Origin: a virus
Taxonomy: Duplodnaviria > Heunggongvirae > Uroviricota > Caudoviricetes
Virus record (IMG/VR): IMGVR_UViG_3300047323_000678
Strand: one strand, 5' to 3'
DNA: 64,000 bases
Position numbers and translations under genes: made by a program. Below are positions 31,379-36,080 of the stretch, piece after piece. Positions within the stretch are counted from its first letter, which is position 1. Each line of letters opens with the position of its first letter. Under the pieces are notes generated by a model. That model made no database searches. It saw nothing but the letters and a program-made list of their open reading frames with translations, and was not told the DNA's origin.

Positions 31379-31414
31379 GTTAAGAAAATAAAAATTTAAT
31401 AATAAGGATAGAAA

Positions 31415-31591
31415 ATGAAACCAGTCGGAAAAGTTATTCAAGAAAAACCAATTATGGTTCATGTGACAAAAAATGCTCGCCCTGTTCATGAGTCAGTTGC
31501 CAAACAATATGTTGAAAAAACATATCCAGAAGTGCTTTCTTGGAAATTCACAAAAACAGATCATTCTGTATTAGCTGAAGAAAATATTTAA
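31415..31591 (+). CDS. Small hypothetical protein (58 aa)
   Basis: AAGGA RBS; MKPVGKVIQEKPIMVHVTKNARP... Confidence 0.55.
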   Translation: MKPVGKVIQEKPIMVHVTKNARPVHESVAKQYVEKTYPEVLSWKFTKTDHSVLAEENI

Positions 31592-31670
31592 AAAATACTT
31601 GTACTTTTAAATATTTTTAGATATAATTGATTTTCATTTAGCAGTAAAAGAAATAAATTCGTTATTTTAA

Positions 31671-31730
31671 TTGGACTTAAGCATATTTTATCCAGCAAGT
31701 TGGGTGCTTAAGTGAAATAAACAACTGCTG
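31671..31730 (+). ncRNA. 60-nt repeated structured RNA motif, copy B
   Basis: Same length and core as copies A and C; sits just downstream of promoter 31599. Confidence 0.7.
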
Positions 31731-31750
31731 CTTTCTAATTCTACTTTTCA

Positions 31751-31967
31751 CAAAACGGCCTATTAGCGTTTTCCAGGTTGCCGCGACGACTGGAAATTGT
31801 GAAAATGCAAGACATGGCTTGGTGATTGTTCATGTCTAAGATAGCTCAAATCACAACTGACAAAACAGGCTACAAGCGTTCTCCAAGTTCCTGCGACGAT
31901 TGGAGATTGTCGGTACAAGACATGGCTTGGTTGTTGAACATGTCTCAGATAGCTCAAACAACCTGCA
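31751..31967 (+). ncRNA. Tandem pair of about 110-nt pseudoknotted RNAs
   Basis: Units start at 31751 and 31861; compensatory changes in a 7-bp stem and in a loop-tail pseudoknot. Confidence 0.75.
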
Positions 31968-31991
31968 TTATTTTTTAATTTGAAGGAAAAT

Positions 31992-32198
31992 ATGCAAATT
32001 ATTGTTCATCTCACCGAAGAAGAATTAAATAATATTTCACTCGATCATTCGGCTTTAACAAAAATTATTCTAAAAAAAGTTGGTTCTATTACGAAAAATC
32101 AAAAAAGAATTTTTGATCAACTAGAAATTGAACTAGAATTAAAAGTCGACAATATATCCCAAGCCTATATTCAAAAAAAGAATTCTTCAAAAGAATAA
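31992..32198 (+). CDS. Small hypothetical protein
   Basis: AAGGA RBS before ATG 31992. Confidence 0.55.
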   Translation: MQIIVHLTEEELNNISLDHSALTKIILKKVGSITKNQKRIFDQLEIELELKVDNISQAYIQKKNSSKE

Positions 32199-32307
32199 TC
32201 ATAATTATTATTTATCATTAAAATCATTGTACATTTTAAGAATAAGAATTATAATATATCATCATTGAGCTTATCCGATTAATCAGTAGTCTTTTTAGGA
32301 ATTCAAT

Positions 32308-33859: not shown

Positions 33860-33922
33860 TTGAACTATTGCTTTATTTTAACTTTTAACTTATATTATCT
33901 GCATAATTTATATATTCAAATA

Positions 33923-35605: not shown

Positions 35606-35810
35606 TTGAATCATTATTATTCTTAGTTTTCTAGCTTTGAATAGATTTTACTTGGCTTTATTTAACGGAGGTTTATCATATTATTAGTGAAAACAATGGA
35701 TATGTTAAATATGTTCTGAGCTATGAATTTGAAGGTCAGAAAAGGGAGCGAGAGGATAGTAGTAAGGCTAAATTTCTGAGTTGCGGCTACCACAGTTTTA
35801 AGCAGATAAA
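35606..35810 (+). ncRNA. Possible omega-RNA / right end of the IS607 element
   Basis: Non-coding, locally GC-enriched stretch right after tnpB with GTAGT/GCTAC stem; boundary not resolved. Confidence 0.3.

Positions 35811-36003: not shown

Positions 36004-36080
<77 letters not shown>

What the first reader, a model, noticed from the sequence alone, without database searches (positions are those of the whole stretch)
31751..31967. Tandem 110-nt RNAs with covarying stem and pseudoknot
Seen: two diverged units. Stem TTTCCAG/CTGGAAA becomes TCTCCAA/TTGGAGA (two compensated pairs) around a conserved GTT.C.GCGACGA loop; a small TTGT/(G/A)CAA hairpin; an invariant AGACATG/CATGTCT stem whose loop pairs downstream, GTGATT/AATCAC becoming GTTGTT/AACAAC (two compensated pairs). 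They lie on a transcript with the 60-nt motif and the promoter at 31599. Four compensations between only two copies is strong evidence of selected structure. I recognise no family.
Basis: partly seen in the sequence, partly recalled or inferred. Interest (0 to 1): 0.82.

Follow-up and report, generated by a model that had tools for sequence, protein, structure and literature searches.

The report
New pseudoknotted RNA in tRNA-gene islands
The two 110-base repeats are real copies of a previously uncatalogued, tightly folded non-coding RNA that recurs, singly or as a pair, in tRNA-rich gene islands of several unrelated uncultured replicons; its fold is well supported but its job is unknown.

Summary
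Two abutting units, 109-111 nt each (31745-31855 and 31855-31963, + strand), are 75-86% identical and match no Rfam 15 family.

A covariance model found ten more copies in seven other metagenomic loci.
- Four low-GC relatives carry conserved tandem pairs.
- Three contigs of 49-55% GC carry single units inside or beside tRNA arrays.

Across 12 sequences, 98% of the proposed pairs form. Nine pairs change on both sides. No shuffle out of 500 reaches the observed score, and slid controls pair at only 30-40%. Ten G·U pairs place the RNA on the + strand.

I corrected the fold in one place. The RNA is then:
- a long hairpin with a conserved 16-nt internal loop and a CGA bulge;
- followed by an H-type pseudoknot with an almost invariant 11-nt loop.

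Downstream genes differ between lineages. In two loci an intrinsic terminator follows the RNA directly. I therefore favour a stand-alone stable RNA that binds a conserved partner (about 0.4) over a riboswitch, a ribozyme or a cis-acting leader.

No expression data could be obtained. The family is new and its function is unknown.

The parts
31599..31627 (+). Promoter-like site TTGTAC-N17-TATAAT, the likely start of the transcript that carries the RNAs
   Evidence: This lineage-specific consensus occurs 6 times in the window, all on the + strand, against 0.34 expected. The same type lies directly upstream of the RNA in L026 and near it in L016. Inferred; no transcript data.
31671..31730 (+). 60-nt pseudoknot motif (a separate finding), 14 nt upstream of unit 1 on the same putative transcript
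   Evidence: Sequence read. Its signature also occurs in L014 before a tRNA(CUA) and in L026 about 365 nt upstream of the RNA. It is not adjacent to the RNA elsewhere.
31745..31855 (+). Unit 1 (111 nt). Closing helix Pa 31745-53 with 31797-805. Conserved 16-nt internal loop 31754-69. Helix Pc 31770-76 with 31790-96; inner pairs 31777-79/31785-87; bulge GA 31788-89. Helix Pd 31810-16 with 31831-37. Pseudoknot 31822-27 with 31849-54. Near-invariant loop L3 31838-48.
   Evidence: Covariance-model hit of 129-133 bits, E about 1e-26 to 1e-28. Pair counts.
31855..31963 (+). Unit 2 (109 nt). Pa 31856-63 with 31907-14. Pc 31880-86 with 31900-06. Pd 31918-24 with 31939-45. Pseudoknot 31930-35 (plus G31929) with 31957-62 (plus C31963).
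   Evidence: Covariance-model hit of 127.6 bits, E 3e-25. Orthologous 'second units' in L014, L016 and L018 carry the same helix variants.
31964..31991 (+). Short spacer with a U-run (31970-76) and a Shine-Dalgarno-like GAAGGA before the next gene. No canonical terminator.
   Evidence: The terminator scan found none in 31400-32300. The U-run is absent in L014 and L018.
31992..32198 (+). Downstream 68-aa orphan ORF. It may share the transcript and is not a conserved partner of the RNA.
   Evidence: No Pfam or PHROG hit. The only database match is itself. A homologue follows the RNA in L018, but unrelated genes follow it in L014, L016, L042, L055 and L057.

Best explanation
Each unit is a gene for a small, stable, highly structured non-coding RNA of about 110 nt, read from the + strand.

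Fold. A 7-9 bp helix formed by the 5' end closes a long irregular hairpin. That hairpin carries a conserved 16-nt internal loop and a CGA bulge. A 4-nt linker leads to a 7-bp hairpin whose loop pairs with the 3' tail, giving an H-type pseudoknot. The 11-nt loop that spans this pseudoknot is nearly invariant.

How it likely works. The helices serve as a scaffold, so their sequences are free to change as long as pairing is kept. The invariant unpaired nucleotides are the working surface. I propose that the RNA is released from a longer transcript, either a tRNA-array transcript or its own promoter transcript. It then acts as a self-contained particle that binds a conserved cellular partner, most plausibly a component that handles tRNA or translation. 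It would not sense a signal for the gene downstream. The tandem pair in the low-GC lineage offers two such sites on one transcript. The different helix sequences of the two units keep them from misfolding into each other.

What is shown: the fold, the strand, the family, and its occurrence as single and paired copies. What is inferred: transcription, release from the transcript, and the binding role.
For: Structure.
- 12 sequences from 8 loci give 98.1% standard pairs over 31 pairs, and 9 pairs change on both sides.
- No shuffle out of 500 reaches the covariation score. Partners slid by 1-3 columns pair at only 30-40%.
- Four different pseudoknot variants all stay complementary: GUGAUU/AAUCAC, GUUGUU/AACAAC, GUGGUU/AACCAU and GUCGUU/AACGAC.
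- Pd has four variants: GACAUG, GAUAUG, GACAGG and GACACG.
- The 5' flank pairs with the region after TTGT specifically in its own sequence. The mean run is 4.2 pairs, against 1.5 for mismatched partners.

Strand. Ten G.U cells would be A.C mismatches on the other strand.

Not coding. The indels are 1-2 nt long and lie in loops.

Selection.
- The RNA has 42-51% GC in a 28% GC genome.
- A close relative shows at most 5 differences in 190 nt of RNA, against at least 34 in the next 430 nt.

Stand-alone character.
- In L042 and L055 a single unit lies 39 nt after tRNA-Gly inside a 21-tRNA array.
- In L042 a 12-bp intrinsic terminator follows the unit directly.
- In L016 the next gene has its own promoter.
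- Downstream genes belong to at least three unrelated families.

Unpaired conservation. 26 of 49 unpaired columns are invariant across replicons of 28%, 49% and 55% GC.
Against: - There is no transcript evidence of any kind.
- In the window, L014, L018 and L057 no terminator separates the RNA from the next ORF, 20-80 nt away. There it is formally a 5' leader.
- In the 49-55% GC lineage the RNA stays upstream of the same gene family (PF26820) across 62% protein identity. This could mean cis regulation.
- No candidate protein partner is shared by all the neighbourhoods.
- tRNA-Pro is 77/77 identical between the window and L042. Part of the cross-replicon similarity may therefore reflect gene transfer rather than constraint.
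- The family is known from only 8 loci. Several are close relatives, so the covariation counts include inherited changes.
Confidence: 0.42

Rival explanations
1. Cis-acting leader that works independently of gene identity. The folded RNA at the 5' end of the transcript would either make RNA polymerase resistant to terminators (as the put RNAs of phage HK022 do) or protect the downstream message from 5'-end-dependent decay.
For: The RNA is promoter-proximal in L026, L016 and the window. It lies 20-110 nt upstream of an ORF on the same strand in 7 of 8 loci. In L042 a strong terminator sits between the RNA and the next gene, which an antiterminator would need to overcome. Long same-strand gene arrays follow.
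Against: In L042 and L055 the RNA follows a tRNA in a tRNA array rather than a promoter. The PF26820 gene has its own conserved upstream motif. L016 has a separate promoter for the next gene. There is no sequence or fold likeness to any Rfam antiterminator or leader.
Confidence: 0.22
2. Self-cleaving ribozyme or processing module. Each unit would cut at its boundary, which separates the abutting units and frees them from tRNA-array transcripts.
For: The units abut with no spacer. The fold is compact and pseudoknotted, with about 26 invariant unpaired nucleotides. The setting is a tRNA array, where HDV-like theta ribozymes are known (PMC10879173, found).
Against: There is no match to any ribozyme model in Rfam. 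The helix order is a closed hairpin followed by a separate H-type pseudoknot, which is not the nested double pseudoknot of HDV-like ribozymes. The RNA is 39 nt away from the tRNA 3' end in L042 and has no upstream tRNA in the low-GC loci. A tRNA-end-trimming role does not fit.
Confidence: 0.12
3. Riboswitch aptamer, tandem in this lineage, that senses a small molecule or ion and controls the gene downstream.
For: The size, the pseudoknot and the highly conserved unpaired nucleotides are typical of aptamers. Tandem aptamers are known (glycine; from my own knowledge). L042 has a terminator right after the RNA. The RNA-PF26820 linkage is kept between L042 and L057.
Against: Downstream genes are unrelated orphans in different loci. 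No sequence in the RNA can compete with the L042 terminator stem (read). The low-GC loci have no conserved terminator or sequestered ribosome-binding site. L016 has an independent promoter for the next gene.
Confidence: 0.1
4. Antitoxin RNA of a type III toxin-antitoxin system. Tandem pseudoknotted repeats would be cut into units by, and inhibit, the small protein encoded just downstream.
For: Tandem direct repeats fold as pseudoknots and are followed by a U-run and a small ORF.
Against: The units are three times longer than ToxI-type repeats (from my own knowledge). The 68-aa ORF has no ToxN/AbiQ or any other domain. The downstream gene is not conserved. Other lineages carry a single unit.
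Confidence: 0.03
5. A DNA-level repeat, such as protein-binding sites or a recombination scar, without an RNA function.
For: None specific. It lies in a repeat-rich, mobile-looking island with TnpB genes.
Against: Compensatory changes preserve pairing in four helices including a pseudoknot. G.U pairs are strand-specific. GC is raised as in tRNAs.
Confidence: 0.02

Closest known systems
Phage T4 stable RNAs rnaC and rnaD (species 1 and 2 RNAs) at the end of the T4 tRNA gene cluster
   Same: They are two small RNAs of 119 and 139 nt. They are encoded in tandem directly after a tRNA gene in a mobile element's tRNA cluster and are annotated as stable RNAs without a known function. The genomic logic matches that of the L042/L055 copies.
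   Different: The covariance model finds no sequence or structure homology, with filters off (best 9.5 bits, E 0.66, and elsewhere in the locus). T4 rnaC carries a tRNA-like T arm, which this RNA lacks.
HDV-like theta ribozymes next to phage tRNA genes (Kienbeck et al. 2024, PMC10879173)
   Same: They are small pseudoknotted RNAs embedded in tRNA gene clusters of mobile elements.
   Different: Theta ribozymes abut the tRNA 3' end and have a nested double pseudoknot. Here there is a 39-nt gap or no tRNA at all, and the helix order differs. No HDV-type Rfam model matches.
Tandem riboswitch aptamers (glycine riboswitch, nadA motif)
   Same: Two similar structured domains lie in tandem in a 5' leader. 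They have conserved cores and variable helices.
   Different: There is no conserved downstream gene class, no expression platform and no Rfam match. Single units are followed by a terminator inside a tRNA array.
ToxI-type antitoxin RNAs of type III toxin-antitoxin systems
   Same: Tandem direct repeats each fold into a pseudoknot upstream of a small ORF.
   Different: The unit is about 110 nt rather than about 36 nt. There is no ToxN/AbiQ-like toxin, and the downstream genes vary.
TnpB omega RNA (reRNA) scaffolds
   Same: They are pseudoknotted RNAs of 100-150 nt. Two TnpB-like genes lie in the window.
   Different: An omega RNA overlaps the 3' end of its tnpB gene and ends in a variable guide. 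This RNA is 1.9 kb upstream of the nearest tnpB. No tnpB was called within the fetched flanks (about 1.5-10 kb, shorter where the contig ends) of the gene-annotated loci: L014, L016, L018, L042/L053, L055 and L057. L026 was not checked.

Membership tests
Any Rfam 15 family | Score at or above the family's gathering threshold, or at least a consistent sub-threshold match across homologues | tested here: not met
   Gathering runs on the window and on L042, L014, L016 and L018 returned only tRNAs. Runs at E<=10 on the window's RNA region, on L042, L057 and L026 gave only scattered, mutually inconsistent weak matches. Most lay on other sequence or on the opposite strand.
tRNA / tRNA-like (tmRNA tRNA-like domain) | Cloverleaf with a T arm and an acceptor stem ending in NCCA | tested here: not met
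   ARAGORN and the Rfam tRNA model do not call the units. There is no T-loop and no CCA after the closing helix or after the pseudoknot.
HDV-like / theta ribozyme | Nested double pseudoknot (P1-P2-P3-P1'-P4-P2') lying directly at a tRNA 3' end | tested here: not met
   The helix order here is a closed hairpin followed by a separate H-type pseudoknot. The gap after tRNA-Gly is 39 nt, and the low-GC loci have no upstream tRNA. No HDV model matches.
HDV-like / theta ribozyme | Site-specific self-cleavage | not testable with these tools
   This needs in vitro transcription and a cleavage assay.
Riboswitch | Conserved association with a functionally coherent set of downstream genes | tested here: not met
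   At least three unrelated downstream gene families were seen: a 68-aa orphan (window, L018), a membrane protein (L014) and PF26820 (L042, L055, L057). In L016 the next gene has its own promoter.
Riboswitch | Expression platform that competes with the aptamer fold | tested here: not met
   The terminator in L042 has no alternative partner inside the RNA. The low-GC loci have no terminator and no sequestered ribosome-binding site.
Riboswitch | Ligand binding | not testable with these tools
   This needs in-line probing or a comparable assay.
Type III toxin-antitoxin (ToxIN-like) | A ToxN/AbiQ-type endoribonuclease gene immediately downstream of the repeats | tested here: not met
   The downstream 68-aa ORF has no Pfam or PHROG hit, and the downstream genes differ among loci.
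T4 rnaC/rnaD stable RNAs | Sequence and structure homology to the T4 RNAs | tested here: not met
   Model R1 with filters off scores nothing on the rnaC/rnaD interval of T4.
TnpB omega RNA | Overlap with the 3' end of a tnpB gene, and a variable guide at the RNA's 3' end | tested here: not met
   The nearest tnpB-like gene starts at 33860, 1.9 kb downstream. No tnpB was called within the fetched flanks of the six gene-annotated other loci. L026 was not checked.

The most novel reading that the evidence does not exclude
The RNA is a new functional RNA class that travels with tRNA arrays between unrelated replicons. It could be a new self-cleaving ribozyme that cuts at the unit junction. It could instead dock on a universal machine (RNA polymerase, ribosome, RNase P or an aminoacyl-tRNA synthetase) and reprogram it for the mobile element. 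The invariant palindromic AGCU in the 11-nt pseudoknot loop would let two units pair with each other, within one molecule in the tandem form and between molecules in the single-unit form.
Probability: 0.15. Interest if true: 0.85.

Novelty: new variant of a known kind. Interest (0 to 1): 0.58.

Why it matters
tRNA gene arrays on phages, plasmids and symbiont islands are usually read as simple codon-supply modules. This finding adds a conserved, intricately folded RNA that is neither a tRNA nor any catalogued family. It is kept almost unchanged in its unpaired nucleotides in replicons of 28%, 49% and 55% GC. It is more conserved than the protein genes beside it. That pattern points to an interaction with something shared by all these hosts. 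At about 110 nt, with a clear secondary structure, it is a tractable target for probing, pull-down and structure work. Together with the other uncatalogued RNAs seen in the same arrays, it suggests that such arrays carry a whole set of unknown RNA functions.

Tried and rejected
Database scans.
- Nucleotide searches of the phage and plasmid collections found only tRNA matches.
- Five exact-pattern scans of viral contigs found nothing homologous (checked with the model).
- The first metagenome pattern was too strict and found nothing.
- The genome-contig scan gave 11 chance hits, all rejected by the model.
- Of the 27 loci from the second metagenome pattern, three were real: the new L026 and L042, and L044, which is the L017 contig already held. 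Weak hits in L032, L034 and L038 are unrelated sequence.

Genome access.
- No whole genome is held for the window.
- The contigs behind L042, L014 and L018 could not be searched.

Expression.
- No RNA holder was listed for this stretch, so expression could not be examined.

Homology and context leads.
- T4 rnaC/rnaD are not homologous.
- The PF26820 gene is not near the T4 tRNA cluster. Its phage homologues are annotated motB.2, so that lead fell.

Structure ideas.
- A helix between the 5' internal loop (GGCCUAU) and the pseudoknot loop (AUAGCUC) is possible in most sequences. It shows no covariation and is broken in L042, so I did not adopt it (read).
- A flavivirus xrRNA-like ring fold was considered while the 5'-flank pairing looked like a second pseudoknot. 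I dropped it once that pairing proved to be a plain closing helix.
- Single-sequence folding energies are not significantly below shuffles (z -0.1 to -1.2). Thermodynamics alone neither supports nor opposes the fold.

Neighbourhood.
- No protein family is shared by all neighbourhoods.

Full report
**What is in the window**

Positions 31745-31963 hold two head-to-tail copies of a unit of 109-111 nt. Tandem Repeats Finder reports period 110, 1.9 copies and 79% matches. Pairwise alignment gives 86-88% column identity over the core and 75% over the full units including the 5' strand. The window has no other copy.

The region has 42-46% GC in a 28% GC background, as the tRNA genes here do.

**Origin of the window**

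- The window is not in the phage, plasmid or viral-contig collections.
- The protein downstream of the RNA is recorded on a contig of 2,230,803 bases.
- The best DNA holder is a rhizosphere metagenome.
- The window also encodes an editing-less ThrRS paralogue, ankyrin proteins, two TnpB-like proteins and eight tRNAs.
- Earlier notes of this scan call the organism an uncultured low-GC, probably eukaryote-associated bacterium. I did not test that.

**Relatives**

A covariance model built from the two units (R1) was run on loci fetched through homologues of the ThrRS paralogue and on hits of a degenerate DNA pattern.
- It found tandem pairs in L014, L016 (the same contig as L017) and L018.
- It found a unit followed by the start of a second one at the end of contig L026.
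- It found a single unit in L042, a 283-kb contig of 55% GC.

Homologues of the gene downstream of the L042 copy led to two more single units. One is in L055 (55% GC). The other is in L057 (49% GC; protein only 62% identical).

Reads and contigs of four other soil and sediment runs also carry diverged copies. One of these looks like a single unit preceded by the sequence that precedes unit 1 here. In the closest of those relatives, the 190 nt of RNA covered show at most 5 differences. The next 430 nt, mostly coding, show at least 34.

**Structure**

On the 12-sequence alignment A6 I tested five helices.
- Of 372 pair cells, 98.1% are standard pairs.
- Nine pairs have changes on both sides, in 36 cells.
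- None of 500 column shuffles reaches the observed covariation score or the paired fraction.
- Sliding the 3' partners by 1-3 columns drops pairing to 30-40%, with 0-1 compensated pairs.

It has three doubly compensated outer pairs, a fourth in its inner extension (U-A/A-U, unpaired in 4 of 12 sequences) and a bulged GA. Helix Pd was invariant within the window. It occurs as GACAUG, GAUAUG, GACAGG and GACACG, each with the matching 3' strand. The pseudoknot occurs in four complementary versions. Ten G.U cells would be A.C on the opposite strand, so the RNA is read from the + strand.

Indels are 1-2 nt long and sit in loops. The overlapping ORFs at 31763-31957 (-) and 31826-31978 (+) are therefore not conserved reading frames.

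RNAalifold and my own check show a different partner for TTGT. The 4-5 nt before ACAAAAC, together with ACAA, pair with TTGT and the 3-5 nt that follow it. This gives a continuous 7-9 bp helix in all 12 sequences.

The pair at its centre occurs as C-G, G-C, U-A and G.U. Two further positions change A-U to G.U and C-G to U.G. Each flank pairs best with its own partner: 4.2 consecutive pairs on average, against 1.5 for mismatched partners.

The small hairpin shows only a one-sided U.G/U-A change, so I regard the long helix as better supported.

The resulting architecture has three parts:
- a long hairpin (closing helix; a 16-nt conserved 5' internal loop that may form a 3-bp mini-hairpin of invariant sequence; Pc);
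- a 4-nt linker;
- an H-type pseudoknot whose third loop, (A/C)AGAUAGCU(C/U)A, is almost invariant.

26 of the 49 unpaired columns are invariant across all three GC classes. In the tandem form, the 3' strand of unit 1's pseudoknot touches the 5' strand of unit 2's closing helix with no spacer.

**Context**

Low-GC lineage:
- The pair is an old duplication. First units of different genomes resemble each other (85-95%) more than they resemble the second unit of the same genome (72-80%).
- The pair follows a lineage-typical promoter, TTGTAY-N16-18-TATAAT. This motif occurs 6 times in the window, all on the + strand, against 0.34 expected. The same type sits directly upstream in L026.
- The pair runs into unrelated small ORFs without a canonical terminator.
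- In L016 the next gene has its own promoter.

L042 and L055:
- A single unit lies 39 nt after tRNA-Gly(UCC), inside an array of 21 tRNA genes.
- In L042 a 12-bp intrinsic terminator follows directly.
- A PF26820 gene comes next.

L057:
- The same RNA-PF26820 order is kept without an obvious terminator.

The 60-nt motif that precedes unit 1 here is not adjacent to the RNA elsewhere. tRNA-Pro(UGG) is 77/77 identical between the window and L042. The two kinds of replicon also occur in runs of the same study and in the same run X2. Gene transfer between them is therefore likely.

**What it is not**

- Rfam 15 gives no match at gathering level and nothing consistent at E<=10.
- It is not called as a tRNA or tmRNA.
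- It is not homologous to the T4 stable RNAs rnaC/rnaD. These are the closest analogue by genomic logic: two stable RNAs in tandem after a tRNA.
- The topology is not that of HDV-like theta ribozymes.
- The downstream ORF is no ToxN-like toxin.
- No tnpB gene was called near the RNA in the other annotated loci.

**Function**

The data show a selected fold whose helices vary freely while the unpaired nucleotides are held fixed in very different genomes. Riboswitch aptamers, ribozyme cores and protein- or machine-binding RNAs all show that pattern.

Three observations argue against a gene-specific switch. The downstream genes vary, a terminator follows the RNA directly inside a tRNA array, and L016 has an independent promoter for the next gene. 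I therefore favour a stand-alone stable RNA that binds a conserved partner (about 0.4). The alternatives are:
- a gene-independent cis-acting leader, acting by antitermination or stabilisation (about 0.2);
- a ribozyme (about 0.1);
- a riboswitch (about 0.1).

None of these can be decided without experiments. No RNA data were available.

**Verdict**

This is a new, narrowly distributed structured RNA family of unknown function. It belongs to the poorly understood set of non-tRNA RNAs that ride in tRNA gene arrays.

Noticed in passing
L042:4779-5250: Directly after tRNA-Thr in the same 55% GC tRNA array lie four tandem copies of another unit of about 112-123 nt. They begin GGGA(A/C)GGCACCC...GCGAC, are 71-87% identical over a 31-nt core, and show apparently compensated stems. 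The 110-nt RNA model does not hit them. They look like a second uncatalogued tandem RNA.
   Followed up: partly
L042:2294-3000: A 314-nt unit made of tRNA-Met plus a structured spacer of about 235 nt is repeated 2.3 times at 80% identity. The spacers match no Rfam family.
   Followed up: no
window 36004-36080 and L042:4448-4524: tRNA-Pro(UGG) is 77/77 identical between the 28% GC genome and the 55% GC contig. L055, the close relative of L042, differs by one compensated pair. This points to recent exchange of tRNA-array genes between replicons that co-occur in the same samples.
   Followed up: partly
window 27435, 30602, 31599, 32227, 35848, 42270 (all + strand): A lineage-specific promoter consensus TTGTAY-N16-18-TATAAT occurs six times against 0.34 expected. 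Two of these sites head RNA-only operons.
   Followed up: partly
L014:7755-7850 and window 35700-35790: The leader upstream of the RNA pair in L014 contains GAAGGU.AG...AAGGGAGCGA inside a hairpin closed by CCAUAU/AUAUGG. It resembles the sequence just downstream of the TnpB-like gene in the window. It may be a leftover omega-RNA or transposon end.
   Followed up: no
L042:3770-3795 and L057:790-815: A conserved motif UCAUGUAAAUU(U/C)C(U/C)CAAC lies 35-45 nt upstream of the PF26820 gene in both lineages, despite 62% protein identity. It may be that gene's own promoter or operator.
   Followed up: no
L042:4525-4693: The spacer between tRNA-Pro and tRNA-Thr is closed by a 16-nt helix (GCUCAAAUUGCUCUGA with UCAGAGCAAUUUGAGU). 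It begins with GAUAGCUCAAAU, the same words as the invariant pseudoknot loop of the 110-nt RNA. This may be chance or a shared recognition sequence.
   Followed up: no
window 35981, 36220, 36795: ACCAAG follows two tRNA-type genes and a third acceptor-like remnant. It is complementary to the invariant CUUGGU of the Pd loop. Too short to be significant on its own.
   Followed up: no
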